Shown: positions 17,847 through 31,148, counted from the stretch's first letter. The stretch is DNA of 31,148 nucleotides from an uncultured Coxiellaceae bacterium (GCA_964511095.1 CAZEEF010000002.1:1-31148), one strand, 5' to 3'. The notes: generated from the letters alone by a model not told the origin. A program made the numbers and translations.

Positions 17847-18869
17847 ATGCGCAAACGTTTAATTCAAATAATTCTCAGAGTTAAGGTGATTATTCAAGAC
17901 AAACAATTTAAACATTTTGTCGCAAAAGGGTTTTTATGTGCATTGCCAGTGATCTTGGCGATAGTGTATGCAGAACATCGCATCGCCACGACCGCAAATA
18001 GTTATAATCAAAAAAAATTCGAACTGGAAAAAAATCTCGACAAAATTCAGGTGTTAGTTTTGGGTTCTTCCAATGCGCATTTTGGCATTAATCCACATGT
18101 GTTTTCTTATAATGGGTTTAATTTGGCTGAATTAGCTCAGTGGCCTTATTATGATTTACAATTGATGAAAAAATATATTAATCGTATGCCTCATTTAAAG
18201 TTGGTGATTTTTTCAGATGCCTATTTTACTTATAGCACAAATGAAAACGTAGATAAAAATGGAGACTGGCGTTTATTTGCCTATTTTCATACCTATGGTA
18301 TCTTGCCTCATCAACGTAGCGCTTTTTTAGGATGGTATCATCCTTTCGATCCGCGTCTTCTGAGTAATATCGTGCTCTATGGCGGTCAGCTTTATACATT
18401 ATGGACACAGGGATCAAGAGATCTCACTAAAGGAGTCAAAGAAGATGATGGCTTAGGTTGGATTAATTTTGGAGCTACTCCCTGCGATGATCCTGAAAAG
18501 CGTGGTAAAGCTGCTGCAAATGAGCATTATGCATTACAAACAGATAAATTTTTAGATCCAAATCTGGAGTATCTAGGTAAGCTAGCAAAATTACTTCAAC
18601 GGCATCATATTAAAATGGTTTTAGTGGAGCTTCCCCAACTACCTTCCTATAGAAATAACTTAGATCCAAAAAAAATCGGCTTACTCTTCAGCAAATTAGA
18701 TGCATTTGCGAAGCGATATCATCTAAAAAATGGTAATTATACAAATGACCCGCGTTTTGATGCTAAAGATTTTACTGTTCTGCCGGATCATCTCAATGGT
18801 GTTGGGGCTACCAAGATTAGTAAAATCATCGATCATGACTTGATTGTTCCTGAATTAAATAAAACGTGA
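17847..18869 (+). CDS. Membrane-anchored SGNH-like acyltransferase partner of the MBOAT (AlgJ/DltD/PatB-type role)
   Basis: Single N-terminal TM, VLVLGSS.A..G.NP (candidate Ser nucleophile) and C-terminal DHLN..GA (His); immediately downstream of the MBOAT. Confidence 0.65.
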   Translation: MRKRLIQIILRVKVIIQDKQFKHFVAKGFLCALPVILAIVYAEHRIATTANSYNQKKFELEKNLDKIQVLVLGSSNAHFGINPHVFSYNGFNLAELAQWPYYDLQLMKKYINRMPHLKLVIFSDAYFTYSTNENVDKNGDWRLFAYFHTYGILPHQRSAFLGWYHPFDPRLLSNIVLYGGQLYTLWTQGSRDLTKGVKEDDGLGWINFGATPCDDPEKRGKAAANEHYALQTDKFLDPNLEYLGKLAKLLQRHHIKMVLVELPQLPSYRNNLDPKKIGLLFSKLDAFAKRYHLKNGNYTNDPRFDAKDFTVLPDHLNGVGATKISKIIDHDLIVPELNKT

Positions 18870-18891
18870 CAGAGTGGATAATGGATTAGAA

Positions 18892-18917
18892 TGGATCCCC
18901 GCTTTCGCGGAGACGAC
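18892..18917 (-). repeat. Single REP-like palindromic element
   Basis: Minus strand reads GTCGTCTCCGCGAAAGCGGGGATCCA, close to the widespread GTCATCCCCGCGAAAGCGGGGATCCA-type REP/dRS3-like hairpin; lies between convergent genes. Confidence 0.55.
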
Positions 18918-18937
18918 AGACTCTAGACATCCCTCGT

Positions 18938-20992
18938 TTAAGTCCGAACTGGATGAGTCAATTTTGTTAAGACTAATTCATTAAATTCCGTTTTATCGGC
19001 TAAGATTTTTTTAGTAACGGAAAATGCACAATCTTCTTTGCCATTTAATATTTGTTGTCCTATAACTCCGCCCCAATAAGAAGTTTGTACTGGTATTTTT
19101 TTCACGAAGTTTTTATTTTTCGAGTAGAGGTAAAAAATCACAGCATATTCATGCCATCCATTCGGTACATCAACATAAATTCGATGACAACTTTTGAGTG
19201 CAGAATCGAAACGACTGATATTCCAATCATATTGCTTTTTTCCATCCGGGAAGTAATAAGTTTCCGCAAAGGAATAGGGTAAAGGATAGTGAGGAACATG
19301 ATATGCAGCCATATCAATACGTGCCAGGCCAAAACCAAATTGACTTAATGCAGCAAGAATGAGCAAAGAATTTCTTAGCGTAAAGATTTTATTGGATAAT
19401 AACAGTGGCACAAAGAATAAAATCATTGCATAAGGAGCAAGGAAATAGAGCCCTCTCGCCATTGCATAGATTCGTGTAGTTAGAAAAAAGAATAGCAACA
19501 TTCCCACCAAAACACCTGCGACTAAAAAAATCAAACGATATTTGGTAGCTGCCTCTTTGTAAGATTTAAAATTTACCCAAAGGAAAAGAACTAATATGAT
19601 TGTTAATAAAGCTCGCCAGTATTCTTGGGTGGTGTGGGCAAGACTGGCGAGAGGAGTCAAAAAATACATACCGAAGAAGCCATAAAATCCATCTATAATG
19701 GTGTAATAAATTAATTCCAAATGGCCTGCTGAAAAAATTTGTTTAAGGATATAGAGAAGAACATAAGCTTGATTTTCTGTATGAACGGTGGCATTGGAAA
19801 AATCTACAGCATTTAAAAATAAGGGTCTGAACCAATTTGCTTGACCAAAAAGAGGTTGTAAATATTCGCCATATACGGCTTGTGTCATTAAATTTTGAGC
19901 GCTAAAAGTCGCAGCCCAAATAAAATGTCCGATAGTGCCTTGGAAATAAAATAGGGATAATGAAAGTCCTAATAGGATGGCAAGTAAAACTTTTGCTGTT
20001 GCAGCAAAAGATATTTTTGATTTTTGTATTTTTAAACCAACAAAGTGGATAGAAAGCAAAGCTGTCAGCAATGCCGGTATATGAAACATAGTATTTTCTG
20101 GGTAAATATACAATGCAAAGCCAATTAAACATCCGAGTGGCAAAAGTTCAACGAAACGCAGAGGCGATTCATTTTGAATATTGCGCGCAGCAATAATAAC
20201 ATAAGTGACAACTGCCAATAAAAGAGGCATGGCACCTGTCATTGACCATGCATCAAAATCAATAAATGACTGTCCCCAAAACCCAATAAAAATAGCGATT
20301 GAAACGGTCATTGCACGATAGATTGAACATTTGAAGACGTTTGTGATGAGAAAAGTAGCTGCCAATATGCCATTGGCAACGAGTACGGTAAGGAATAAAT
20401 ATCCAAATCGATACATTTCTTGTCGACGTATATCGGTGAGTAGACCAAAAAGGTGTTCAATAGCGGGGCGACGGTATAGTTCAACGGCACCGAATATTGA
20501 AATTGGACTTCTTAAGAAAAATTCTCCAGAGCTTTGGTTGACTTCTTTAAAAGTTTCGTGATCATAAGTTAAAGCTGTTCCGAGATAAGAAAATTGATCC
20601 CAAATCCATCCTTGAAAAACGGAAAATCGCAGTCCACCCACCCAGTAGGGAATTAGAATAATGATTAAAGCTAACAACCAAATTAAGAAAATAGAAATAT
20701 TTGTTTTTGTATGTAGGGACAAAAAATTTACAACCTCATCTTTTTTGTAAATCAATACAAAACAAATCAGTAAAGCGAATCCCCAAAGTGTATGATAAAG
20801 ATGCAGGTGGCTTACGCCAAATCTATATGTAACTGTTGTCAGGAAACTGACGAATCCATAACCCAAAATAGTTGTAATTAAATATTTATTTTTAAATCGA
20901 GTGGCAGGAACTAAATATAGAAAAGGTAGGCCCAATAAAAAAGTTAAAATAAAAGCACTGCAAATAAAAAGGCAATCCGAGCCAAATAGCAT
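18938..20992 (-). CDS. Polytopic membrane protein, probable GT-C glycosyltransferase
   Basis: 684 aa with more than 10 TM segments, an acidic WDQFSY loop after the N-terminal helices, a YPE motif and a C-terminal soluble domain; GAGG ribosome binding site; divergent from a GtrB-like gene. Confidence 0.5.
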   Translation of the reverse strand: MLFGSDCLFICSAFILTFLLGLPFLYLVPATRFKNKYLITTILGYGFVSFLTTVTYRFGVSHLHLYHTLWGFALLICFVLIYKKDEVVNFLSLHTKTNISIFLIWLLALIIILIPYWVGGLRFSVFQGWIWDQFSYLGTALTYDHETFKEVNQSSGEFFLRSPISIFGAVELYRRPAIEHLFGLLTDIRRQEMYRFGYLFLTVLVANGILAATFLITNVFKCSIYRAMTVSIAIFIGFWGQSFIDFDAWSMTGAMPLLLAVVTYVIIAARNIQNESPLRFVELLPLGCLIGFALYIYPENTMFHIPALLTALLSIHFVGLKIQKSKISFAATAKVLLAILLGLSLSLFYFQGTIGHFIWAATFSAQNLMTQAVYGEYLQPLFGQANWFRPLFLNAVDFSNATVHTENQAYVLLYILKQIFSAGHLELIYYTIIDGFYGFFGMYFLTPLASLAHTTQEYWRALLTIILVLFLWVNFKSYKEAATKYRLIFLVAGVLVGMLLFFFLTTRIYAMARGLYFLAPYAMILFFVPLLLSNKIFTLRNSLLILAALSQFGFGLARIDMAAYHVPHYPLPYSFAETYYFPDGKKQYDWNISRFDSALKSCHRIYVDVPNGWHEYAVIFYLYSKNKNFVKKIPVQTSYWGGVIGQQILNGKEDCAFSVTKKILADKTEFNELVLTKLTHPVRT

Positions 20993-21175
20993 GTTACTAC
21001 CTCATGTGAATAAAAACGGAGTTTACCAGGCGTGAAAACAATACTGAATGCAATAGCGAAATTCAAGTATTTTAAACAAAACGTTGAGTTATTAACTCTT
21101 TAATTCTCAATAGAGATGGGTTAATATGCGGCAGAATTAAAAAATGGTTGAAAAATATAACAGGGATGGCACTCA

Positions 21176-22144
21176 ATGAGCCAAGAATGTGTTATAGCAA
21201 AAAATAAGCAGTTATCGATTATTGTTCCAGTGTATAAAGAAGCTGGAAATATTAAACCCTTTCTTGACCGTATGGTTACTGTTTTAAATAAAGCCAATTT
21301 GACCTATGAAATCATTTTTTGCCTCGATCCTTCCCCCGATAACACCCAAGAAATTATTCAACAAGAAATCGAACGAAATTCCAATATTCATTTATTACTT
21401 TTTTCACGACGTTTTGGCCAGCCTGCCGCAACCATGGCAGGAATACTGTATTGTAAAGGTGATGCATGTATCGTCATTGATGTCGATTTACAAGATCCAC
21501 CCGAATTAATTGAAACCATGTATGCAAAATTAAATGAAGGTTGTGAAGTCGTTTATGCGAAACGTCGTTCACGCAAAGGGGAAACCTTAATAAAACGGTT
21601 TATTTCATACCTCGGTTATAAAATCATTAATAAACTCAGTGATGTTCAAATTCCTCGCAATACTGGTGATTTTCGCATTATGACTCGACGGGTTATTGAA
21701 GAAATTCGTCGCTTGAATGAATCACATGGTTTTTTGCGCGGTTTGGTGGCATATGTTGGTTTTAAACAGGCTTTTATTGAATATGATCGTGATGAGCGTT
21801 TTGCGGGAAAGGGAAATTACAATCGTTTTACTGGGTCACTAAAAATTGGATTGAATGGTCTCATTAGTTTTAGTAGTCGACCTTTACAAATGATGTCAGT
21901 AGTGGGCGCCGCCATTGCCGGATTTAGTTTTATCCTCGGCATTTGGTATGTTATCCAAAAATTTGTTGTTATTAATTTGACTCCTGGATTGTCAACGACT
22001 GTTCTAGTGGTATGTTTTTTTTCAGGTGTTCAATTATTATGTCTTGGATTAATGGGTGAATATGTTGGACGTATTTACGATGAAGTCAAAAAACGTCCGA
22101 TGTATATCGTTGATAAGGTCATGAATAAAACGGAGTCGTCGTGA
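21176..22144 (+). CDS. GT2 polyprenol-phosphate glycosyltransferase, GtrB-like
   Basis: LSIIVPVYKE, SRRFGQ.AA..AG, IDVDLQDPP, GDFR.M.R, two C-terminal TMs, GEYVGRIYDEVK.RP.YIV. Confidence 0.92.
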   Translation: MSQECVIAKNKQLSIIVPVYKEAGNIKPFLDRMVTVLNKANLTYEIIFCLDPSPDNTQEIIQQEIERNSNIHLLLFSRRFGQPAATMAGILYCKGDACIVIDVDLQDPPELIETMYAKLNEGCEVVYAKRRSRKGETLIKRFISYLGYKIINKLSDVQIPRNTGDFRIMTRRVIEEIRRLNESHGFLRGLVAYVGFKQAFIEYDRDERFAGKGNYNRFTGSLKIGLNGLISFSSRPLQMMSVVGAAIAGFSFILGIWYVIQKFVVINLTPGLSTTVLVVCFFSGVQLLCLGLMGEYVGRIYDEVKKRPMYIVDKVMNKTESS

Positions 22145-23028
22145 CATTACCTTTTGTATTACCACCAGTGACCGAAGGATCTGCTATTCCGTTATGGGAA
22201 GGGAATGGTTTTCGAGTCGGACATGAACTTATTAATGTGTTGCAATACAGCATTAATACGTTAGGCTGGAATGATGATTTAACCCTGTTTCATGAAGAAT
22301 CAGCAGGCGATCAACATTTTATTGATAGAGCTTCTCGTGATCATGCCATGAGTCAGTTAAAAAACAATCTTAAACACGATTCCTATCCCGTGATTCTCGA
22401 AGTGGGTTGTTCGTCTGGATTCATGCTGCAACGTATGCAAAAAGCTTTTCCAGAAGCCATCATAGTAGGTTCTGATGTGGTTGTTGAACCGTTAAAAAAA
22501 TTATCTGAAAGATTTCCTAATATTCCATTATTGCGATTTGATATGTTGCATTGTCCATTGCCTGATAATAGCGTCGATGCTGTAGTAATGCTGAATGTAT
22601 TAGAACATATCAAAGAAGATGGAAAAGCATTGCAGCAAGCGTATCGTATTTTAAAACCGGACGGTATTTTAGTCATAGAAGTACCGGCTGGTCCGAATTT
22701 GTATGATGCATATGATAAAGTTTTGATGCATTACCGACGTTATGTGTTATCACAATTATGTCAATTAGTTAAAGAACAGCATTTTGAAATACTCAAAGAA
22801 TCGCATCTGGGATTTTTTCTTTATCCCGGTTTTTGGTTGGTAAAACAACGTAATAAACGATTGTTGACAGAATCAGTAGCAATACAGCACCAACAGGTTG
22901 ATAAGGCCATCCGTCAAACAGGTAAAAGCAAACTGATGCATGCCATTATGCAAACTGAATTACGTTTGGGTCGTTACGTAAAATATCCGAGAGGAATTCG
23001 TTGTTTAGTGACAGCAAGAAAAAAATGA
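22141..23028 (+). CDS. Class I SAM-dependent methyltransferase
   Basis: ILEVGCSSG, GSD, DAVVMLNVLEHI, LKPDG, H.RRY; GTG start overlaps the GT2 stop. Confidence 0.85.
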   Translation: MTLPFVLPPVTEGSAIPLWEGNGFRVGHELINVLQYSINTLGWNDDLTLFHEESAGDQHFIDRASRDHAMSQLKNNLKHDSYPVILEVGCSSGFMLQRMQKAFPEAIIVGSDVVVEPLKKLSERFPNIPLLRFDMLHCPLPDNSVDAVVMLNVLEHIKEDGKALQQAYRILKPDGILVIEVPAGPNLYDAYDKVLMHYRRYVLSQLCQLVKEQHFEILKESHLGFFLYPGFWLVKQRNKRLLTESVAIQHQQVDKAIRQTGKSKLMHAIMQTELRLGRYVKYPRGIRCLVTARKK

Positions 23029-23053
23029 TAAATAATAAATAGGAGAAAAAAAT

Positions 23054-24010
23054 TTGCGTTATTTTATCACAGGCTGTGCGGGCTTTATTGGCAGTAGTTT
23101 GACAGACAGATTGTTACAAGCAGGTCATGAAGTCATTGGCTTTGATAATTTTTCAACTGGGTTGTTGGAGTTTTTGCAGGGAGCAAAAAAATCATCCCGT
23201 TTTACATTCATTAATGACGATTTATTAAAAAAAGAATCCGTCATTCAATCAATGAAAAATGTGGATATGGTATTCCACATGGCCGCGAATGCCGACGTTC
23301 GATTTGGCACGCATCATCCTCACAAAGATTTAGAACAGAATGCGATTGCTACTTTTAATGTGTTAGAAGCCATGCGTATCAATCATGTTAAACGCATTGC
23401 TTTTGCATCCACGGGTTCAATTTATGGTGAAGCTGAACTGATTCCAACACCTGAACATGCCCCTTTTCCAGTGCAAACTTCCCTCTATGGCGCTTCAAAA
23501 TTGGCGGCAGAAGGTTTAATTCAGGCTTATTGCGAAGGATTTAATTTTCAAGGCTATATTTTCCGCTTTGTTTCAATTTTAGGGGAACGGTATACCCATG
23601 GTCATGTGTTTGATTTTTATAAACAATTGAGAAATGATCCTACACAATTACAAATTTTGGGAAACGGTAAGCAGCGTAAATCTTATCTATATATTCAGGA
23701 TTGTTTGGATGCGATGATGTGGGCGTTGGATCATGCAAACAATAAAATCAATATTTTTAATTTGGGCTTGGATGAATATTGTGAAGTGAATCATTCTATC
23801 AGTTGGATATGTGACTTTTTAAAAGTTTCTCCTATGTTTTCCTATTCAGGTGGCGAGCGTGGTTGGATTGGTGATAATCCATTTATTTATCTGGATTGTT
23901 CACGGATTCGAAAATTAGGATGGAAACCTAAATTAAGCATTCGCGAAGGCGTTTTACGCACTATTCAATATCTGACAGAAAATTCTTGGGTATTGGAGCA
24001 GAGATCATGA
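23054..24010 (+). CDS. NAD-dependent NDP-sugar epimerase (extended SDR)
   Basis: ITGCAGFIGS, HMAANADVR, STGSIYG, YGASK, LGNGKQRKSY; TTG start with AGGAG 8 nt upstream. Confidence 0.9.
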   Translation: MRYFITGCAGFIGSSLTDRLLQAGHEVIGFDNFSTGLLEFLQGAKKSSRFTFINDDLLKKESVIQSMKNVDMVFHMAANADVRFGTHHPHKDLEQNAIATFNVLEAMRINHVKRIAFASTGSIYGEAELIPTPEHAPFPVQTSLYGASKLAAEGLIQAYCEGFNFQGYIFRFVSILGERYTHGHVFDFYKQLRNDPTQLQILGNGKQRKSYLYIQDCLDAMMWALDHANNKINIFNLGLDEYCEVNHSISWICDFLKVSPMFSYSGGERGWIGDNPFIYLDCSRIRKLGWKPKLSIREGVLRTIQYLTENSWVLEQRS

Positions 24011-25299
24011 AAGTTGCTGTAGTAGGACTTTGGCATTTGGGTTCAGTCATTGCCGCCTGTTTGGCGAAAGTTGGGCATGATGTTATCGCTTATGATTCAA
24101 CAAACGAAACGGTCACCAATTTACAAAAAGGTCAGCCGCCTATTTTTGAACCTGGCTTGGAAAACTTATTGAACGAAGGTAGAGATGCAGGACACCTTGT
24201 TTTTTCAAGTTGCCCTGAAGATTTAAAAAATGCAGAAACAATTTGGATTACATTAGATACACCGGTGGATAATAATGATATCGCCGATGTTAATTCTGTC
24301 ATGCAAGAAGTTAAAAAAATAGTTTCATATTTACAAAAGAATGCATTGCTTATTATATCTTCACAGATACCTGTTCAGACGACTCATCAATTACAAGCAG
24401 ATTGTTTTGAAAGATATCCTGAAAAAAATATTTCATTTGCCTATTTGCCGGAGAATTTACGTCTAGGTAAAGCAATCGATGTATTCATGCATCCCGATCG
24501 TATTGTGATTGGGTTGGATGATCAGACACAAAAAGAAAAAATGATACAATTATTAAAACCCCTATCAGAAAAATTCATCTGGATGTCAATTGTTTCTGCA
24601 GAAATGACAAAACATGCCATTAATGCTTTTTTAGCTGTTTCAGTGACTTTTATTAATGAATTGGCAGTGTTATGTGAAACAGTTGGCGCGAGTGGTCAGG
24701 AAGTTGAAATGGGTCTCAAAAGTGAAGAACGAATTGGGCCCAAAGCTTATTTACGGCCTGGCGATGCCATTGCAGGCGGTACATTAATGCGTGACATTCA
24801 TTATCTGACCCAATTGGGAGAGCAAAAGCAGCGTCATTCATTTTTACTATCAGCAATCATACAAAGCAATGATTATCATAAACAATGGGCATGTCGAAAA
24901 TTAGCAGATTTGTTAAAAACATTAAATGGAAAAAAAATCGCGATGCTTGGGCTGACATATAAAGCGGACACCGATACATTGCGACGTTCAACCGCAATTG
25001 AAACATGCGAATGGTTACATCAGAACGGGGTAACTGTTCAAGCTTACGATCCGTCTATTAGTACATTACCCGATGAATATGCTCAATTTATTCAAATCAA
25101 ATCAACTATCAAAGAAGCATTAAGTGATGCCGATGCAGTCGTGATTTCCACGGAATGGCCGCAATTTCGAGAAATGACAGCGGATGAATGTATGCAATAT
25201 TTGAAACAGCCTTATGTGTTGGATCCCAATGGTTTTATTGCCAGAAATCTGAAATCAGATGCACGCATCAATTATTTTACTGTCGGAGTACCCGCATGA
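24007..25299 (+). CDS. UDP-glucose/GDP-mannose dehydrogenase family protein lacking the catalytic Cys (LmbL-like candidate)
   Basis: Three-domain UGD pattern: P..EPGL, PE.LR.G.A, AEMTKHAINAFLA, GLTYK..TD..R.S. GGTLMRD replaces GGSCFPKD. ATG 24007 overlaps the previous stop. Confidence 0.85.
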   Translation: MKVAVVGLWHLGSVIAACLAKVGHDVIAYDSTNETVTNLQKGQPPIFEPGLENLLNEGRDAGHLVFSSCPEDLKNAETIWITLDTPVDNNDIADVNSVMQEVKKIVSYLQKNALLIISSQIPVQTTHQLQADCFERYPEKNISFAYLPENLRLGKAIDVFMHPDRIVIGLDDQTQKEKMIQLLKPLSEKFIWMSIVSAEMTKHAINAFLAVSVTFINELAVLCETVGASGQEVEMGLKSEERIGPKAYLRPGDAIAGGTLMRDIHYLTQLGEQKQRHSFLLSAIIQSNDYHKQWACRKLADLLKTLNGKKIAMLGLTYKADTDTLRRSTAIETCEWLHQNGVTVQAYDPSISTLPDEYAQFIQIKSTIKEALSDADAVVISTEWPQFREMTADECMQYLKQPYVLDPNGFIARNLKSDARINYFTVGVPA

Positions 25300-26168
25300 A
25301 ATTACTGGGAAAATGCGCTGTTATTACGGGTGCGAATCAAGGTTTCGGATTAGAAATTGCTAAGGAATTTATAAAGCAGGGTGCGAATGTGATGTTATGC
25401 GCACGCAATGCCGAAATGCTTTTTCAAGTGCAAAAAGAGTTAAGAATATTAGCTGCAAATAATTCAAAGGTATTGGTACAAAAAACGGATGTTTCCAAAA
25501 TAAATGAAGTAGAACAATTAATAGAAATCACAATTAAAGAATTTGGAAAAATGGATATTCTTGTTGCGAATGCGGGAGTGTATGGTACAAAAGGTGCTAT
25601 CGATGAAATTGATTGGAATGAATGGTCGGATGCAATTGATATTAATTTAAAAGGGACTGTGCTGCAGTGTCGTGCTGTACTTCCGCATTTCAAAAAAAAT
25701 AAATATGGAAAAATTATTATATTATCTGGTGGTGGCGCAACGAAACCCATGCCTTTTTTAAGTGCCTATGCTGCTTCAAAAGCAGCAGTCGTCAGATTTG
25801 CTGAAACACTGGCAGAAGAAGTAAAAGCCTTTGGCATTGATGTCAACACGGTTGCACCGGGTGCTCTCAATACCCGTTTGTTAGATGAAATATTAGCTGC
25901 AGGCCCCGAAAAAGTCGGTGCGGATTTTTATAAACAGGCAGTTAAACAAAAAGAAACAGGCGGTACACCGTTAAATGTTGGTGCTTCACTTTGCGCATTT
26001 CTTGCAGCATCTGCAAGTGATGGCGTCACGGGCAAATTAATTAGTGCTGTATGGGATCCCTGGATTAAATTTCCTGAAGTATTGGAAGAATTACGACAGT
26101 CTGATATATACACATTACGCCGTATTGTGCCAACTGATCGCGGCAAAAACTGGGAAGACGTATCGTGA
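25296..26168 (+). CDS. Short-chain dehydrogenase/reductase
   Basis: AVITGANQGFG, LVANAG, SGGG, YAASK, VNTVAPG; ATG 25296 overlaps the previous stop. Confidence 0.9.
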   Translation: MKLLGKCAVITGANQGFGLEIAKEFIKQGANVMLCARNAEMLFQVQKELRILAANNSKVLVQKTDVSKINEVEQLIEITIKEFGKMDILVANAGVYGTKGAIDEIDWNEWSDAIDINLKGTVLQCRAVLPHFKKNKYGKIIILSGGGATKPMPFLSAYAASKAAVVRFAETLAEEVKAFGIDVNTVAPGALNTRLLDEILAAGPEKVGADFYKQAVKQKETGGTPLNVGASLCAFLAASASDGVTGKLISAVWDPWIKFPEVLEELRQSDIYTLRRIVPTDRGKNWEDVS

Positions 26169-27142
26169 AAATCGCTATTATTGGCTGTGGGTCAATCGGG
26201 CAAAAAAGAGCAAAGACATTAGCAGGATGTCAGCTGGTTGCATGCGTTGATCTCGTCAAAGAAAAAGCGGATGCCCTGGCAAACGAATTTCCAGATTGTG
26301 TGGCATTGACTGAGTGGCAAGAAGTCATTAATAGAACCGATATAGATATCGTCATTATTTCTACGCTGCATGCAAACTTGGCTGAAATTGCTTTTGCCGC
26401 AGCAAATGCAGGCAAACATATGTTGATAGAAAAGCCGGGAGCCCGAAATGCAAATGAATTGGATTCTGTCATCACTGCTGCCAAAAAATCGGGTTCATTA
26501 ATTCGGGTGGGTTTTAATCATCGTTATCATCGCGCTTTTCAAAAAGCACGAGCCCTGATTGATCAAAATGAATTAGGTGAACTTATGTTTTTGCGGGGTC
26601 GCTACGGGCATGGTGGACGTGTCGGATACGACAAAGAATGGCGTGCCGATCCAGTATTATCCGGTGGTGGCGAATTAATCGATCAAGGCGTTCATCTGAT
26701 TGATTTGGCACGCTGGTTTTTAGGTGATTTTAGTGAAGTACAAGGGCATGCGCATACTTACTTTTGGAATATGCCGGTTGATGACAATGGTTTTCTCTTG
26801 TTAAAAACGCCAAAAAAACAAACCGCTTTTTTACATGCCAGTTGTACAGAATGGAAAAATACTTTTTCATTTGAAATTTATGGACGTAAGGGAAAAATTG
26901 ATATCAACGGATTAGGCGGTAGTTACGGCACGGAGCGTATTAGTTTTTACAAAATGTCAGAAAAAATGGGGCCGCCGGAAACATTTATGTGGGAATATCC
27001 TATGATGGATAATTCGTGGGAACTTGAATTGAAAGAATTTTGTGAAGATATCAAACAAAATCGTCAACCCATGCCGGGTATTCACGATGCACAGGCTGCA
27101 TTAAAGATTGTAGAGGAAGTTTACAGGATGTCAGAATTATGA
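26165..27142 (+). CDS. Gfo/Idh/MocA family oxidoreductase (LmbZ-like candidate)
   Basis: IIGCGSIG, H..IEKP, VGFNHRY, GGGELIDQGVH.ID; GTG start overlaps the previous stop. Confidence 0.88.
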   Translation: MKIAIIGCGSIGQKRAKTLAGCQLVACVDLVKEKADALANEFPDCVALTEWQEVINRTDIDIVIISTLHANLAEIAFAAANAGKHMLIEKPGARNANELDSVITAAKKSGSLIRVGFNHRYHRAFQKARALIDQNELGELMFLRGRYGHGGRVGYDKEWRADPVLSGGGELIDQGVHLIDLARWFLGDFSEVQGHAHTYFWNMPVDDNGFLLLKTPKKQTAFLHASCTEWKNTFSFEIYGRKGKIDINGLGGSYGTERISFYKMSEKMGPPETFMWEYPMMDNSWELELKEFCEDIKQNRQPMPGIHDAQAALKIVEEVYRMSEL

Positions 27143-28122
27143 TTATTGTCCGCAGTCCATTACGGATTTCATTGGGCGGAGGCGGTACGGATTTACCGTC
27201 TTATTATCAAGAACACAGTGGTTTTTTAATTGCCGCAGCAATTGATAAATATGTGTATATCACATTGCACCAAACATTTGTGGAAGAGCTGATTATTAAA
27301 TATTCCAAACTTGAGCGCGTGTGTTCCGTGGATGAAGTGGAGCATCCTATTATACGTGAAGCATTAAAACATACGAATATTGCGGCATCGCATTTAGAAA
27401 TTACGAGTATGGCAGATATTCCTGCAGGTACAGGTTTAGGTTCATCTGGCAGTTTTACAACCGCTTTGCTGAAGGCATTATATACGTTAAATAAAAATTT
27501 AGTGCATCCACGGGAATTAGCGGAAGAGGCGTGTCACATAGAGCTTGAATTATTAAAAGAACCCATCGGCAAACAAGATCAATATATCGCTGCATATGGC
27601 GGCATTACCTGTTTTAATTTTTTGCCAAATGGTCAAGTAGAAGCATGGCCTTTGAAAATTGATCAAGAAACCTTATTTAATCTGGAAGATAATTTATTAT
27701 TATTTTTTACAGGCTATTCTCGCTCGGCATCAAATATTTTAATGGAGCAAGATAAAAAAAGTAAAAATAAAGATACTAATATGATTGCCAATTTACATTT
27801 TATTAAAGAATTAGGTTTTAATAGTAAAGAGGCTTTAGAAAAGGGTGATTTGCATGAATTTGCTAATCTCATGAATGTGCATTGGCAACATAAGAAAAAA
27901 CGTTCCGGCAATATGAGTAATACACAAATTGATGAATGGTATGAATTAGCACTAAAAAATGGCGCACTGGGTGGAAAAATGATTGGCGCTGGCGGTGGTG
28001 GTTTTCTTATGTTTTATACAGATGATAAAGCAACCCTCCGTCATGCTATGCGTCAAGCTGGTTTAGAAGAAGTACGTTTTCGATTTGATTTTTTGGGTAC
28101 ACAGGTTGTTGCGCAATCATGA
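27139..28122 (+). CDS. hddA: GHMP-family anomeric sugar-phosphate kinase (HddA-like)
   Basis: PLRISLGGGGTD, P.GTGLGSSG, GKQDQY..A.GG, GGK.IGAGGGGF. Confidence 0.88.
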   Translation: MIIVRSPLRISLGGGGTDLPSYYQEHSGFLIAAAIDKYVYITLHQTFVEELIIKYSKLERVCSVDEVEHPIIREALKHTNIAASHLEITSMADIPAGTGLGSSGSFTTALLKALYTLNKNLVHPRELAEEACHIELELLKEPIGKQDQYIAAYGGITCFNFLPNGQVEAWPLKIDQETLFNLEDNLLLFFTGYSRSASNILMEQDKKSKNKDTNMIANLHFIKELGFNSKEALEKGDLHEFANLMNVHWQHKKKRSGNMSNTQIDEWYELALKNGALGGKMIGAGGGGFLMFYTDDKATLRHAMRQAGLEEVRFRFDFLGTQVVAQS

Positions 28123-28829
28123 ATAAAATAATTTTTCCAATCGTTATTTTAGCAGGTGGTTTAGCAACCCGGTTACGTCCATTGACAGAAAAAATGCCTA
28201 AAGCCTTACTCGAAATACACGGCGAACCTTTTATTACACATCAATTACGTTTATTGGCAGCGAAAGGTATTCAAGCAGTTGTCTTGTGTTTAGGCTATTT
28301 AGGCGAACAGATCATTGATGTGGTGGGGGATGGAAAAAAATTGGGTCTGCAGGTGAAATATAGTTTTGATGGAGACAAATTATTGGGAACAGCGGGTGCA
28401 ATCAAACAGGCTTTTTCACTTCTTCCTGATACTTTTTTTGTTCTATATGGTGATTCTTATTTACCCTGTGATTACTATCTTGTTCAGCAGGCATTTTTAC
28501 AGAATGATTGCCGGGGTTTGATGACGGTTTTTTATAATAAAGATCAATGGGACACCAGTAATATCGAATTTGCTAACCGACAAATTTTAGCTTATGACAA
28601 ATTGCAACGTACATCCCGCATGCAGCATATCGATTATGGACTGGGAATTTTGACAAAAAGCAGTTTTGATTCTATTCCTGAAAATCAATTTGCAGATCTG
28701 GTAACGGTTTATCAGCATTTATTAAAGCAACAACAATTAGCGGCTTATGAAGTTCGTGAGCGATTTTATGAAAATGGTTCACATCAGGGGATTTGTGAAT
28801 TAGGACACTATTTAGAAAAAATAAATTAA
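28119..28829 (+). CDS. Sugar-1-phosphate nucleotidyltransferase (HddC-like guanylyltransferase)
   Basis: ILAGGLATRLRPLT..PK, LGTAGAI, LYGDSY; lies between the kinase and the isomerase. Confidence 0.85.
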   Translation: MNKIIFPIVILAGGLATRLRPLTEKMPKALLEIHGEPFITHQLRLLAAKGIQAVVLCLGYLGEQIIDVVGDGKKLGLQVKYSFDGDKLLGTAGAIKQAFSLLPDTFFVLYGDSYLPCDYYLVQQAFLQNDCRGLMTVFYNKDQWDTSNIEFANRQILAYDKLQRTSRMQHIDYGLGILTKSSFDSIPENQFADLVTVYQHLLKQQQLAAYEVRERFYENGSHQGICELGHYLEKIN

Positions 28830-28838
28830 GGAGTTTCA

Positions 28839-29435
28839 ATGGATTTCATCAATCAATTTTTAACAGAAACAAATCATATTGTTGCAGAATTAGATAAAGA
28901 ACAAATTGCAAAATGCGTTGATTTGTTGGCAACAGTACGCGAATGTGACGGTCGTTTATTTATTTTGGGTGTAGGAGGCAGTGCGGCAAATGCTTCTCAT
29001 GCAGTGAATGATTTCAGAAAAATCGTCAATATTGAAGCGTATGCGCCGACTGATAATGTCTCTGAGTTAACAGCGCGGACGAATGATGAAGGCTGGGCAA
29101 CTACTTTTTCTCAATGGTTAGCGGGCAGTCGTTTAAAAACGAACGATATGGTTTTGGTTCTTTCAGTGGGCGGCGGAAATCTCGAAAAAAATGTGAGTCC
29201 AAATTTAGTGTCTGCACTGAAATATGCAAAAAATGTGGGTGCTAAAATCATTGGGATTATTGGCCGTGATGGTGGTTTTACCAAAACGGTTGCCGATGCC
29301 TGTGTGATTATTCCCACACCGAATCCAGAGAATACTACGCCGCATGCAGAAGCTTTTCAGAGTGTTATTTGGCATTTATTCGTATCACATCCCAAATTAA
29401 AAGCCACGCCAACCAAATGGGAATCGGTGCTATAA
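28839..29435 (+). CDS. gmhA: SIS-domain phosphosugar isomerase, divergent GmhA-like
   Basis: G.GGSAA.A.H, TA..ND.G, GRDGG, AD..I.P; active-site positions differ from E. coli GmhA (see findings). Confidence 0.75.
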   Translation: MDFINQFLTETNHIVAELDKEQIAKCVDLLATVRECDGRLFILGVGGSAANASHAVNDFRKIVNIEAYAPTDNVSELTARTNDEGWATTFSQWLAGSRLKTNDMVLVLSVGGGNLEKNVSPNLVSALKYAKNVGAKIIGIIGRDGGFTKTVADACVIIPTPNPENTTPHAEAFQSVIWHLFVSHPKLKATPTKWESVL

Positions 29436-29436
29436 C

Positions 29437-29973
29437 ATGAAAAATTGCGCAGTTTTTTTGGATAGAGACGGTGTTTTAAATGCTGCCATCATAAAAAATG
29501 GTAAACCTTATTCACCAGCATCGATTGCTGAATTAACGATTCCACCCGATGTGCCCGCCGCATTAAAAAAATTAAAATCTGCTGGCTTTTATTTAATTGG
29601 TGCAACCAATCAACCGGATGTTGCACGCGGTAAAATGCAAAAGTCCACTGTCGAAGAAATAAATAATATGTTATTGAAACAGTTACCGCTGGATGATTTG
29701 TTTGTGTGTTATCACGATGATCAGGATGACTGTGATTGTCGTAAACCAAAATCGGGTTTGTTATTACAAGCGGCAGAAAAATATCAATTATCACTGACCG
29801 ATTCTTTCATGGTGGGCGATCGTTGGCGCGATATCGAAGCAGGGCAGGCAGCGGGTTGTCAAACGATTTGGATTGATAATCACTATACTGAAATGAAACC
29901 CAAAAAACCCAGTTTTATAGCATTCAATTTTGGGGATGCTGCGAAATGGATATTAAATAAAGTGAGGGAATAA
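29437..29973 (+). CDS. gmhB: HAD-family sugar-bisphosphate phosphatase (GmhB-like)
   Basis: VFLDRDGVLN, TNQ, C.H....C.CRKP Zn motif, GDR..DI.AG. Confidence 0.9.
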   Translation: MKNCAVFLDRDGVLNAAIIKNGKPYSPASIAELTIPPDVPAALKKLKSAGFYLIGATNQPDVARGKMQKSTVEEINNMLLKQLPLDDLFVCYHDDQDDCDCRKPKSGLLLQAAEKYQLSLTDSFMVGDRWRDIEAGQAAGCQTIWIDNHYTEMKPKKPSFIAFNFGDAAKWILNKVRE

Positions 29974-29976
29974 AAA

Positions 29977-30717
29977 ATGTCAGCTGTCAATCAGTTAAAA
30001 GTTAAGATTTTTGCAGATGGTGCAGATAAACGTAGCATGCTAGAAATGTATCAAAAGCCTTATATCAAAGGATTCACGACTAATCCTACCTTGATGCGTC
30101 AAGCAGGCATTGTTGATTATTATGCATTTTCACAAGAAATTTTAGCGCTCATCAAAGATCGACCTATTTCTTTCGAAGTATTTGCAGATGATTGGAAGAC
30201 TATGCATTGGCAAGCATTAGAAATAGCAAGCTGGGGCAGAAATGTTTATGTTAAAATTCCGGTCACCAATACAGCGGGCGAGTCGAGTATTCAGTTAGTA
30301 GATAAATTAGCCAGGGCTGGTGTGCAACTTAATGTGACGGCATTGATGACATTAGATCAAGTGCGTGAAATCAGTGAAGCCATTGGTGATAAGGCGGCGG
30401 CTTGTATTTCTGTTTTTGCTGGTCGAATTGCTGATACAGGCAGAGACCCTGTTCCTTTGATGGCGGAAGCCGTGAAGATTCTGGCGAGATATCCAAATCA
30501 AGAATTGATTTGGGCAAGTCCCCGTGAATTATTGAATGTCATCCAGGCAGATGATGTGGGATGTCATATTATTACAGTGACGCCCGATGTTTTAAAAAAG
30601 TTAGATTTGATTGGTAAATGTTTAAATGAATATTCTTTGGATACCGTGAAAATGTTCAGACGTGATGCAGTGCTTGCCGGTTTTTCTTTACAATCTGAAG
30701 AAGTGGAATTGGCGTAA
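29977..30717 (+). CDS. tal: Transaldolase (small TalC/FSA-size type)
   Basis: GFTTNPTL, SFEV (Glu), VYVKIP (Schiff-base Lys), NVT, SVFAGRI (Phe rather than the Tyr of FSA). Confidence 0.88.
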   Translation: MSAVNQLKVKIFADGADKRSMLEMYQKPYIKGFTTNPTLMRQAGIVDYYAFSQEILALIKDRPISFEVFADDWKTMHWQALEIASWGRNVYVKIPVTNTAGESSIQLVDKLARAGVQLNVTALMTLDQVREISEAIGDKAAACISVFAGRIADTGRDPVPLMAEAVKILARYPNQELIWASPRELLNVIQADDVGCHIITVTPDVLKKLDLIGKCLNEYSLDTVKMFRRDAVLAGFSLQSEEVELA

Positions 30718-30748
30718 TTTTAGAATAAAGATGAAACCGGAGCTAGAA

Positions 30749-31148
30749 ATGCCCAATATAAATGCACATTCAAATGATGTTAGTCAAAACAAAAAATATA
30801 TTGTGGCATTTTACATGCTTTTTACGATCGGATTAATTTTGCTGACTTATAAAATAGGGAGTAAATTAGGAAGCACTATTGCGGATTATTTAAATGCATC
30901 GATTCAATACAGAGCATGGGCTGAAACTTGTCTGGAGATTGCAAAACCGAGCCAGTTATTAAGTTATTTGCTTCCAGCGCTTTCTCTCTGTTTTTATTAT
31001 TTTTTAGCTTCTTTGCACTATAATGGTTATATTCGGTTTAGGAATCCATTATTTACGCAAGAAAATCGTACTGGAAAAATGATTCTATATAGCGTGCTAG
31101 CGGTATTAATCAACTTCTTTTTGCTATTAAAAATGAATTACCATCTTG
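30749..31148 (+). CDS. Membrane protein of unknown function (3' truncated by window edge)
   Basis: Frame is open from ATG 30731/30749 (GGAG 6 nt before 30749) to the window end, with at least three hydrophobic segments; absent from the ORF track because it has no stop codon. Confidence 0.6.
   Translation, partial: MPNINAHSNDVSQNKKYIVAFYMLFTIGLILLTYKIGSKLGSTIADYLNASIQYRAWAETCLEIAKPSQLLSYLLPALSLCFYYFLASLHYNGYIRFRNPLFTQENRTGKMILYSVLAVLINFFLLLKMNYHL

What the first reader, a model, noticed from the sequence alone, without database searches (positions are those of the whole stretch)
23054..30717. Lincosamide-type GDP-octose pathway apparently repurposed for a surface glycan
Seen: nine coupled genes (epimerase, UGD-like, SDR, Gfo/Idh/MocA, GHMP kinase, nucleotidyltransferase, SIS isomerase, HAD phosphatase, transaldolase). 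Established: lincomycin's C8 sugar is built by LmbR (transaldolase), LmbN (isomerase), LmbP (kinase), LmbK (phosphatase), LmbO (guanylyltransferase), LmbM (epimerase), LmbL + LmbZ (UGD-family + Gfo/Idh/MocA, 6,8-dehydration) and LmbS (aminotransferase). Eight of the nine families are present here and an SDR stands where LmbS would be. Plain GDP-heptose synthesis (GmhA, HddA, GmhB, HddC) needs none of the extra five genes. Inference: the product is a GDP-8-deoxy-octose with C6 hydroxyl instead of amine, transferred via the adjacent GT2/GT-C. A modified heptose is the main alternative. Similar cassettes may be widespread and misannotated as heptose pathways.
Basis: partly seen in the sequence, partly recalled or inferred. 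Interest (0 to 1): 0.9.

Follow-up and report, generated by a model that had tools for sequence, protein, structure and literature searches.

The report
Transaldolase-primed higher-sugar (octose-type) cassette
Nine tightly coupled genes in a soil bacterium's surface-sugar locus form a cassette, conserved in hundreds of species, that most likely builds an activated eight-carbon sugar using the enzyme set known only from lincomycin synthesis. The sugar's chain length is still unproven.

Summary
Nine co-directional, mostly overlapping genes at 23054-30717 encode an extended-SDR epimerase, a Cys-less UGD-like protein, a classical SDR, a Gfo/Idh/MocA oxidoreductase, a GHMP kinase, a nucleotidyltransferase, a SIS isomerase, a HAD-IIIA phosphatase and a transaldolase. 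Two starts need correcting: the UGD-like gene starts at 24007 and the SDR at 25296.

The cassette is not peculiar to this genome. At least 500 species hold the UGD-like gene with its odd GLWH(L/Q)G motif. Of 50 loci long enough to judge, 33 carry all nine genes and 28 keep the same order. They span 12 or more phyla and include an archaeon. HAD-transaldolase and transaldolase-SIS fusions exist.

None of the four "heptose" enzymes reaches its NCBIfam equivalog cut-off. The genome has a separate canonical GmhA, a canonical UGD and a transketolase. Three of five other carriers checked also keep housekeeping transaldolases.

The octose reading is therefore the most economical, at about 0.5, but it is not shown. 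The one Lmb protein I could compare, LmbN, is the best structural match to the SIS protein. It is only 28% identical, no closer than the GmhAs. GDP as the nucleotide and the 8-deoxy product are inference.

This scan has flagged the same cassette before on other DNA (41 notes), with the same open question.

The parts
21176..22144 (+). GT2 glycosyltransferase of the polyprenyl-phosphate type (PgfS/ArnC/GtrB-like), the likely first user of the activated sugar
   Evidence: Pfam PF00535. NCBIfam full-length matches to PgfS (253 bits) and ArnC (159 bits), both below equivalog cut-offs. Homologues of 63-83% identity lie next to the cassette in about 25 other loci; 46-57% matches elsewhere may be unrelated GT2s.
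22141..23028 (+). Class I SAM-dependent methyltransferase, overlapping the GT2 stop by 4 nt; target unknown (possibly O-methylation of the sugar)
   Evidence: Pfam Methyltransf_11/25/12. Homologues of 47-62% identity lie beside the cassette in about 10 loci.
23054..24010 (+). Extended-SDR NDP-sugar epimerase (GalE-like; in the LmbM position)
   Evidence: PF01370 1e-47; best NCBIfam match GalE, 129 bits, below cut-off. The sequence reads STGSIYG and YGASK, without the TDE/SE acid-base pair of 4,6-dehydratases. This motif reading rests on my own knowledge of those families.
24007..25299 (+). UGD-family protein with Thr in place of the catalytic Cys and GLWHLG in place of GxGxxG (in the LmbL position)
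   Evidence: TIGR03026 320 bits. Alignment to UDP-glucose dehydrogenase 4A7P shows AGGTLMRD against GGSCFPKD and GLWHLG against GTGYVG. W9, H10 and G257-G258-T259 are invariant in 44 cassette homologues. AF2 model pLDDT 94.
25296..26168 (+). Classical SDR, candidate ketoreductase (in the position where Lmb has the aminotransferase LmbS)
   Evidence: adh_short 1e-53. TGxxxGxG and YxxxK motifs are present. Present in nearly all cassette loci; replaced by an extended SDR in the Isosphaeraceae loci L008/L009.
26165..27142 (+). Gfo/Idh/MocA NAD(P) oxidoreductase (in the LmbZ position)
   Evidence: PF01408, PF22725 and PF02894. An intact GxGxxG and the EKP motif are invariant in 32 homologues.
27139..28122 (+). 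GHMP sugar-phosphate anomeric kinase (HddA/WcbL-like; in the LmbP position)
   Evidence: GHMP N and C domains. HddA equivalog 177 bits against a cut-off of 600. PDB best hits are HddA 3K85 (9e-49) and WcbL 4USK. It is the most conserved cassette gene, 58-87% identity across loci.
28119..28829 (+). Sugar-1-phosphate nucleotidyltransferase, nucleotide unknown (in the LmbO position)
   Evidence: PF00483. MurU 114 bits against 250; HddC 77 bits against 300. PDB best hits are MurU 4Y7T and Yersinia HddC 6JQ8.
28839..29435 (+). SIS-fold ketose/aldose phosphate isomerase, remote from GmhA (in the LmbN position)
   Evidence: SIS_2. GmhA TIGR00441 56 bits against a cut-off of 209. Asp aligns with GmhA's catalytic Glu, and the phosphate loop carries a 6-residue insertion. 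The AF2 model (pLDDT 94) is best matched by LmbN: TM 0.86, rmsd 1.7, 28% identity.
29437..29973 (+). HAD-IIIA sugar-bisphosphate phosphatase (GmhB-like; in the LmbK position)
   Evidence: TIGR01656 122 bits and TIGR01662 93 bits, both above cut-off. GmhB PRK08942 115 bits against 178. The DRDGVLN nucleophile motif and the C-x-H-x7-C-x-C loop are present.
29977..30717 (+). Short transaldolase of the TIGR02134 type (in the LmbR position); the only transaldolase in this genome
   Evidence: TIGR02134 338 bits against a cut-off of 282. It is the single PF00923 hit in the assembly. Homologues of 58-78% identity lie in cassettes in other phyla. HAD-TAL and TAL-SIS fusions exist.
18938..20992 (-). 684-aa polytopic membrane protein, a candidate periplasmic glycosyltransferase or polymerase for the lipid-linked sugar (weak assignment)
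   Evidence: No Pfam or NCBIfam hit. About 10 hydrophobic segments. Homologues of 55-62% identity lie near the cassette in L002 and L017.

Best explanation
The block is one copy of a horizontally mobile, strongly conserved cassette that makes a nucleotide-activated higher-carbon sugar for a surface glycan, starting from its own transaldolase.

Proposed route (inferred by analogy with LmbR/N/P/K/O/M/L/Z):
1. The transaldolase joins a C3 unit from fructose 6-phosphate to ribose 5-phosphate, giving octulose 8-phosphate.
2. The SIS enzyme isomerises this to octose 8-phosphate.
3. The GHMP kinase phosphorylates C1.
4. The HAD phosphatase removes the 8-phosphate.
5. The nucleotidyltransferase makes NDP-octose.
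6. The GalE-like epimerase inverts C4 and/or C6.
7. The Cys-less UGD-like protein and the Gfo/Idh/MocA oxidoreductase oxidise the secondary C6 alcohol and remove the C8 hydroxyl.
8. The SDR reduces the 6-keto group.

The PgfS/ArnC-like GT2 upstream then loads the sugar on a polyprenyl phosphate for transfer outside the cytoplasm.

Shown here: gene families, intact motifs, coupling, conservation, and separateness from canonical heptose enzymes.

Inferred: every substrate, the chain length, the nucleotide and the final sugar.
For: 1. All nine families are present, with catalytic motifs intact.
2. The transaldolase is an integral part of the cassette. All five sampled close homologues of the transaldolase lie in the cassette. 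33 of 50 sufficiently long loci found with the UGD-like gene have all nine genes, and 28 are colinear. HAD-TAL (P0122, P0124, P0134, P0145) and TAL-SIS (P0127) fusions exist, and P0127 sits in a cassette variant.
3. A private supply of sedoheptulose 7-phosphate seems unnecessary. This genome has a transketolase. Mycolicibacterium, a Bacillota MAG and a Phototrophicaceae MAG keep housekeeping transaldolases beside the cassette copy.
4. The four 'heptose' enzymes fail their equivalog cut-offs: GmhA 56/209, HddA 177/600, HddC 77/300, GmhB 115/178. The same genome has a canonical GmhA (303 bits against 276) that is only 28% identical to the cassette SIS. Three other carriers show the same split.
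5. The SIS protein has Asp for the catalytic Glu and a 6-residue insertion in the loop that binds the terminal phosphate in GmhA. Its model matches LmbN better than any of the 29 GmhAs among the 30 hits listed (TM 0.86 against 0.80 or less).
6. The UGD-like protein cannot make a uronic acid because it lacks the Cys. That fits single oxidation of a secondary alcohol.
7. Under the octose route each of the nine genes has a precedent in the Lmb pathway. Under a heptose route four genes have none.
Against: - No direct evidence of chain length exists.
- Ordinary transaldolases make sedoheptulose 7-phosphate, and they can also make octulose 8-phosphate as a side reaction (PMC5854111). The enzyme family therefore does not discriminate.
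- The cassette SIS is no closer in sequence to LmbN (28%) than to GmhAs (24-29%).
- LmbL did not appear among Swiss-Prot fold matches, probably because it is not in that library, and no other Lmb sequence could be fetched. Whether LmbL shares the GLWHxG and GGT motifs is unknown.
- The kinase's nearest solved relatives are heptose kinases.
- One cassette variant (L106) shows no UGD-like gene within the 12.5-kb stretch fetched, which runs to the contig's end on one side.
- In this genome and two others the cassette transaldolase is the only one, so a housekeeping role cannot be excluded there.
Confidence: 0.5

Rival explanations
1. The cassette makes a modified NDP-heptose. The transaldolase only boosts sedoheptulose 7-phosphate from fructose 6-phosphate and erythrose 4-phosphate. 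The SIS, kinase, phosphatase and nucleotidyltransferase are divergent GmhA/HddA/GmhB/HddC analogues. The four redox enzymes then epimerise or oxidise the heptose side chain, for example by C6 oxidation and re-reduction or by C4 epimerisation.
For: The nearest named families and solved structures of the four activation enzymes are heptose enzymes. Sedoheptulose 7-phosphate is the normal transaldolase product. In G000, a Bdellovibrio MAG and a Methanospirillum MAG the cassette transaldolase is the only one found. The SIS protein is as similar to GmhAs as to LmbN in sequence.
Against: All four enzymes fall far below the heptose equivalog cut-offs, while a canonical GmhA coexists in the same genomes. 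Known GDP- and ADP-heptose clusters need no transaldolase (established knowledge). Carriers with a housekeeping transaldolase and transketolase still keep the cassette copy. No known heptose-tailoring route uses a Cys-less UGD-like protein with a Gfo oxidoreductase. The cassette has no GMD-like 4,6-dehydratase or cupin epimerase.
Confidence: 0.3
2. The cassette makes some other activated sugar. One option is a nonose, if the transaldolase accepts a hexose phosphate. Another is a product that serves as a soluble metabolite or lipid head group and not a glycan residue.
For: Transaldolase acceptor range is broad (PMC5854111). Related transaldolase-SIS pairs sit in quite different contexts. One is L011, with a CMP-transferase, a 2-hydroxyacid dehydrogenase, a fatty-acid hydroxylase and an LPG-synthase-type membrane protein. 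Lawsonia has an LPG-synthase-type membrane protein inside its cassette.
Against: The co-conserved GT2 is of the polyprenyl-phosphate type. The surrounding genes here and elsewhere are Wzy, Wzz, ABC-transporter or GtrA glycan genes. The HddA-like kinase and GmhB-like phosphatase point to an aldose 1,omega-bisphosphate route as in the heptose and octose pathways.
Confidence: 0.12
3. The UGD-like and Gfo pair works like WbpA/WbpB of Pseudomonas aeruginosa, giving a uronic acid followed by 3-oxidation. The cassette would then make an amino-uronic acid.
For: A UGD-family gene near a Gfo/Idh/MocA gene also occurs in the WbpA/WbpB pathway (established knowledge).
Against: The catalytic Cys needed for acid formation is replaced by Thr in all 44 homologues. 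The cassette holds no aminotransferase or acetyltransferase, and it carries its own sugar-phosphate activation module.
Confidence: 0.03

Closest known systems
Lincosamide sugar pathway of Streptomyces lincolnensis / S. caelestis (LmbR, N, P, K, O to GDP-octose; LmbM, LmbL + LmbZ/CcbZ, LmbS/CcbS to GDP-lincosamide)
   Same: The enzyme-family list and logic are the same: transaldolase, SIS isomerase, kinase, phosphatase, nucleotidyltransferase, epimerase, dehydrogenase-family protein plus NAD(P) oxidoreductase. LmbN is the best structural match of the SIS protein.
   Different: An SDR replaces the aminotransferase. The gene order differs (lmbVTQRSOPZNML). There is no carrier-protein fusion. The context is a surface glycan, not an antibiotic cluster. 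Identity to LmbN is only 28%, so this is a distant lineage. The substrates are untested. That LmbL and LmbZ belong to the UGD and Gfo/Idh/MocA families rests on my own knowledge; the papers held say only 'dehydrogenase' and 'NAD(P)-dependent oxidoreductase'.
GDP-D-glycero-alpha-D-manno-heptose pathway (GmhA, HddA, GmhB, HddC), as in Aneurinibacillus, Campylobacter and Burkholderia WcbL/M/N
   Same: The same four folds appear, with the same order of chemistry: isomerase, anomeric kinase, terminal phosphatase, nucleotidyltransferase. The nearest solved structures are HddA, WcbL and GmhA.
   Different: All four proteins are below the equivalog cut-offs. The SIS protein has a remodelled phosphate loop and Asp in place of Glu. 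A dedicated transaldolase and four extra redox genes are fixed parts of the unit.
ArnC/ArnT, GtrABC and PgfS-type lipid-carrier glycosylation
   Same: The co-conserved GT2 matches PgfS and ArnC over its full length. GtrA-like genes and large polytopic membrane proteins lie beside the cassette in L002 and L010, and in this window.
   Different: The donor sugar is unknown. The acceptor-side transferase is not identified: the 684-aa protein has no family match.
UDP-glucose / GDP-mannose 6-dehydrogenases
   Same: Same three-domain fold (TM 0.90 to Swiss-Prot UGDs). The catalytic Lys/Asn helix is kept.
   Different: Thr replaces the catalytic Cys and Trp replaces the second Gly of GxGxxG. Both changes are invariant in the subfamily, so it cannot be a two-step 6-dehydrogenase.

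Membership tests
Lincosamide octose pathway (Lmb/Ccb) | Enzyme set: transaldolase, isomerase, kinase, phosphatase, nucleotidyltransferase, epimerase, dehydrogenase-family protein, NAD(P) oxidoreductase | tested here: met
   Pfam and NCBIfam assignments agree with the Lmb function tables in PMC4351081 and PMC12945683. The match is at the level of family or function only.
Lincosamide octose pathway (Lmb/Ccb) | C6 aminotransferase (LmbS/CcbS) | tested here: not met
   No aminotransferase lies in 21176-30717. A classical SDR sits between the UGD-like and Gfo genes.
Lincosamide octose pathway (Lmb/Ccb) | Proteins closer to Lmb proteins than to heptose-pathway proteins | tested here: inconclusive
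   Only LmbN could be compared. It is the best structural match (TM 0.86, rmsd 1.7), but at 28% identity against 24-29% for GmhAs. LmbR, P, K, O, M, L and Z could not be fetched.
Lincosamide octose pathway (Lmb/Ccb) | Transaldolase takes ribose 5-phosphate as acceptor and gives octulose 8-phosphate | not testable with these tools
   Needs an enzyme assay.
Lincosamide octose pathway (Lmb/Ccb) | GDP as the activating nucleotide | tested here: inconclusive
   The nucleotidyltransferase is remote from all equivalogs: MurU 114/250, mannose-1-P guanylyltransferase 80/440, HddC 77/300.
GDP-D-glycero-alpha-D-manno-heptose pathway | GmhA equivalog | tested here: not met
   TIGR00441 56 bits against 209; NF010546 47 bits against 276. 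The genome's other SIS gene scores 303 against 276.
GDP-D-glycero-alpha-D-manno-heptose pathway | HddA equivalog | tested here: not met
   NF049969 177 bits against 600.
GDP-D-glycero-alpha-D-manno-heptose pathway | HddC equivalog | tested here: not met
   NF049965 77 bits against 300.
GDP-D-glycero-alpha-D-manno-heptose pathway | GmhB equivalog | tested here: not met
   NF006506 115 bits against 178; NF050049 75 bits against 250. Only the broad HAD-IIIA domain models pass.
UDP-glucose/GDP-mannose 6-dehydrogenase (functional) | Catalytic Cys in GGxCxxKD | tested here: not met
   Thr259 takes its place and is invariant in 44 homologues.
UDP-glucose/GDP-mannose 6-dehydrogenase (functional) | GxGxxG dinucleotide motif | tested here: not met
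   The motif reads GLWHLG. W9 and H10 are invariant.
TIGR02134 short transaldolase | Score above the curated cut-off | tested here: met
   338 bits against 282.
Polyprenyl-phosphate GT2 (ArnC/GtrB/PgfS type) | Full-length match to the equivalog models | tested here: inconclusive
   PgfS 253 bits against 500 and ArnC 159 bits against 529. Both alignments are full length, but both scores are below cut-off.

The most novel reading that the evidence does not exclude
An eight-carbon sugar (probably an 8-deoxy-octose) made by lincomycin-type chemistry is a common, so far unrecognised constituent of surface glycans. It would occur in hundreds of bacterial species and some archaea. Public databases hide it because its genes are labelled heptose, galactokinase and UDP-glucose dehydrogenase genes. 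The antibiotic pathway would then be a specialised relative of this primary surface-sugar pathway.
Probability: 0.45. Interest if true: 0.85.

Novelty: new variant of a known kind. Interest (0 to 1): 0.7.

Why it matters
If the product is an octose, a sugar class known only from one antibiotic family would become a widespread building block of cell envelopes. Carriers include Legionellales, Rhizobium, Lawsonia intracellularis, mycobacteria, Chloroflexota, Acidobacteriota, Planctomycetota and methanogens.

That would add a new monosaccharide to bacterial glycobiology. It would correct hundreds of annotations. It would give enzymes for making C8 sugar nucleotides. It would also suggest where the lincosamide sugar genes came from.

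Even if the product is a heptose, the Cys-less, Trp-bearing UGD-like protein paired with a Gfo oxidoreductase is an uncharacterised enzyme type conserved in at least 500 species.

Tried and rejected
1. Fetching Lmb/Ccb sequences for reciprocal searches and trees failed by every allowed route.
- The representative search with the transaldolase, followed by picking high-GC-looking hits, led to a different cluster (L011).
- Cluster names were empty.
- The plasmid search found a Streptomyces sp. 3211 transaldolase in an unrelated context.
- An even sample of 401 genomes of the class Actinomycetes gave 4 cassette-type transaldolases and no lmb-like locus.
- A homologue search seeded with the Mycolicibacterium UGD-like protein listed only cassette members.
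- The key papers PMC3486926, PMC7547251 and PMC3932030 are not held.
- Only LmbN surfaced, through the Swiss-Prot fold search.

2. Complex prediction of the UGD-like protein with the Gfo protein gave no support (score 0.00). This is not evidence either way.

3. Promoter and terminator scans over 18800-31148 found fewer sites than the shuffles. They gave no information on operon limits, apart from a weak promoter-like site at 23008-23036.

4. Beare et al. 2018 describe there a GmhA-like gene, two epimerases and a reversed HldE-like kinase/adenylyltransferase (CBU0674-0678). That is a different activation module, so I did not use it.

5. I tested the idea that the cell lacks a source of erythrose 4-phosphate or sedoheptulose 7-phosphate. 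This genome has a transketolase, and so do the five other carriers tested. The argument cannot be applied here.

6. Literature searches for a characterised octose or 8-deoxy-octose in a polysaccharide linked to such genes found nothing.

Full report
**What is there**

The window is contig C2 of a 1.85-Mb, 89%-complete assembly. It was recovered from soil metagenomes. The closest cassette relatives are in Gammaproteobacteria and Legionellales MAGs. The whole window is a one-strand surface-glycan locus.

At 23054-30717 there are nine + strand genes with clear family assignments:
- extended-SDR epimerase
- UGD-family protein
- classical SDR
- Gfo/Idh/MocA oxidoreductase
- GHMP kinase
- nucleotidyltransferase
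- SIS_2 isomerase
- HAD-IIIA phosphatase
- TIGR02134-type transaldolase

Reading the junctions moves the UGD-like start to ATG 24007 and the SDR start to ATG 25296. Five junctions are then 4-nt start/stop overlaps, and the other three gaps are 1-9 nt. A GT2 (21176-22144) and a methyltransferase (22141-23028) overlap each other and end 25 nt before the epimerase. The transcription unit is therefore probably eleven genes.

Catalytic motifs are intact in all nine proteins:
- SDR proteins: YxxxK
- Gfo protein: EKP and GxGxxG
- kinase: GHMP motif II
- nucleotidyltransferase: GGxxTRL
- phosphatase: DxDG and the C-x-H-x7-C-x-C loop
- transaldolase: the Schiff-base Lys context

**The cassette is a conserved, mobile unit**

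The transaldolase has homologues of 67-76% identity in many phyla. Every one of the five I looked up lies beside the same kinase-NT-SIS-HAD genes and the epimerase-UGD-like-(SDR)-Gfo block.

Among the best 80 loci, 50 have room for the whole cassette. Of these, 33 hold all nine genes and 28 keep them colinear within 9 kb.

Carriers include:
- Pseudomonadota, Chloroflexota, Acidobacteriota, Planctomycetota, Nitrospirota and Cyanobacteriota
- Myxococcota, Desulfobacterota and Bdellovibrionota
- Bacillota
- Actinomycetota (Mycolicibacterium sp. P1-18, an isolate)
- a Methanospirillum MAG

Further cultured carriers are Rhizobium jaguaris CCGE525, Rhizobium sp. CB3060 and Lawsonia intracellularis plasmid 3.

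Among this genome's own relatives the cassette is patchy. It is present in 5 of 18 genomes of the same family and in none of 4 of the same genus. That pattern is expected for an exchangeable glycan module.

Gene fusions tie the transaldolase to its neighbours. There are HAD-transaldolase proteins (P0122, with several 430-aa members from different sources, plus P0124, P0134 and P0145) and a transaldolase-SIS protein (P0127) that sits in a cassette variant.

**It is not an ordinary heptose pathway**

The four activation enzymes match the heptose equivalog models only weakly:
- GmhA 56 bits against a cut-off of 209
- HddA 177 against 600
- HddC 77 against 300
- GmhB 115 against 178

The same genome holds a canonical GmhA in the usual yraN/dolP neighbourhood (303 bits against 276). 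It is only 28% identical to the cassette SIS over 116 residues. Mycolicibacterium and Bdellovibrio carriers show the same split: their canonical copies score 164-208 bits and their cassette copies 41-50 bits. All five carriers' cassette copies score 41-66 bits.

Profile alignment to solved GmhAs shows two family-wide changes in the cassette SIS. Asp stands where GmhA has the catalytic Glu. Six residues are inserted in the Ser-rich loop (SVGGGNLEKNVSPN against STSG-KSPN). That this loop holds the terminal phosphate in GmhA rests on my own knowledge.

The genome also has a transketolase, so sedoheptulose 7-phosphate is available without a transaldolase. Three of five other carriers keep housekeeping transaldolases in addition to the cassette copy. 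In Mycolicibacterium the housekeeping gene lies next to tkt. A gene kept only to top up a common metabolite would be expected to be lost more often.

**The tailoring block**

The UGD-like protein folds confidently as a UGD (pLDDT 94; TM 0.90 to Swiss-Prot UGDs at about 31% identity). It has Thr for the catalytic Cys and GLWHLG for GxGxxG. Both changes are invariant in 44 homologues. The genome has a separate canonical UGD at 33% identity.

Without the Cys the protein cannot carry an aldehyde on to an acid. Oxidation of a secondary alcohol to a ketone, or a non-redox role beside the Gfo enzyme, fits better. The Gfo protein has an intact Rossmann motif.

The epimerase lacks the acid-base pair of 4,6-dehydratases. 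The cassette holds no GMD-like dehydratase or cupin epimerase, which are the usual heptose-tailoring enzymes.

**Comparison with the lincosamide pathway**

Published tables list the Lmb sugar enzymes as follows:
- LmbR transaldolase
- LmbN isomerase
- LmbP kinase
- LmbK phosphatase
- LmbO nucleotidyltransferase
- LmbM epimerase
- LmbL dehydrogenase
- LmbZ NAD(P)-dependent oxidoreductase
- LmbS aminotransferase

LmbM, LmbL, CcbZ and CcbS convert GDP-octose to GDP-lincosamide. The cassette reproduces eight of these nine functions and has an SDR where LmbS would act. Under the octose route every gene has a precedent. Under a heptose route four genes have none.

Direct comparison was possible for one protein only. 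LmbN (Swiss-Prot Q54367) is the best structural match of the SIS model, with TM 0.86 and rmsd 1.7 Å. The listed GmhAs reach TM 0.76-0.80. Identity is 28% for LmbN and 24-29% for the GmhAs. The list is ranked by E-value, so a GmhA further down could have a higher TM.

The cassette is thus analogous to the Lmb pathway in composition but is a distant, old lineage. 'Repurposed from lincosamide synthesis' is not supported as history. If anything, the direction could be the reverse.

**Delivery**

The GT2 matches PgfS and ArnC over its full length. Homologues of 63-83% identity lie next to the cassette in about 25 loci. This points to loading on a polyprenyl phosphate.

GtrA-like genes and large polytopic proteins without family matches accompany the cassette in L002 and L010 and in this window, where the protein is the 684-aa one at 18938-20992. 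The acceptor is unknown.

**Verdict**

- I put about 0.5 on an NDP-octose route, with the 8-deoxy, 6-hydroxy product a further inference.
- I put about 0.3 on a modified heptose with a private precursor supply.
- The rest goes to other products.
- GDP is not established.
- In the papers held, nothing describes this cassette or a matching sugar.
- The scan has met the same cassette repeatedly on other genomes (41 notes), always stopping at the same unanswered question. A bench assay of the transaldolase and the five-enzyme cascade, or sugar analysis of a cultured carrier, would answer it.

Noticed in passing
L011:5214-10714: A 43%-identical transaldolase and a 48%-identical SIS protein sit with a CMP-transferase (CTP_transf_3), a 2-hydroxyacid dehydrogenase, two SDRs, a Gfo protein, a fatty-acid hydroxylase and an LPG-synthase-type membrane protein. 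This may be a second kind of transaldolase-primed pathway, perhaps to a CMP-activated sugar acid.
   Followed up: no
L104:10974-11957 (Lawsonia intracellularis plasmid 3): In Lawsonia the cassette is split. An LPG-synthase transmembrane-domain protein lies between the transaldolase and the UGD-like gene, and two hypothetical proteins of about 1,090 aa flank the blocks. The same membrane-protein family appears in L011. It could be the flippase or transferase for the lipid-linked sugar.
   Followed up: no
P0122, P0124, P0134, P0145, P0127; L106:8001-9350: Natural fusions exist: HAD phosphatase with transaldolase, and transaldolase with SIS isomerase. In the 12.5-kb stretch fetched around the TAL-SIS fusion (L106) no UGD-like gene is seen, though SDR and Gfo genes are kept.
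   Followed up: partly
L008:1716-7089 (Isosphaeraceae MAG): This cassette variant lacks the classical SDR. An extended SDR follows the Gfo gene and there are extra epimerase-family genes. The locus uses an ABC-transporter (Wzm/Wzt-like) export route.
   Followed up: no
L095:16685-19436 (Streptomyces sp. 3211 plasmid p3211-1): A TIGR02134-type transaldolase (51% identical) lies between an arabinono-1,4-lactone oxidase and an HxpB-like phosphatase, among many transposases. This context is unrelated to the cassette.
   Followed up: no
window 30662-31147: A 162-aa open frame overlaps the transaldolase's 3' end and runs off the contig. It has no family hit and no similarity to the ATPase gene that follows the cassette in L003. 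It may not be a gene.
   Followed up: partly
G402 contig C22:95-2506 (Methanospirillum MAG): A second weak SIS/GmhA-like gene lies 1.2 kb from a 292-aa transketolase-N-like frame that holds one TGA. This may be another sugar-extension pair or a split archaeal transketolase.
   Followed up: no
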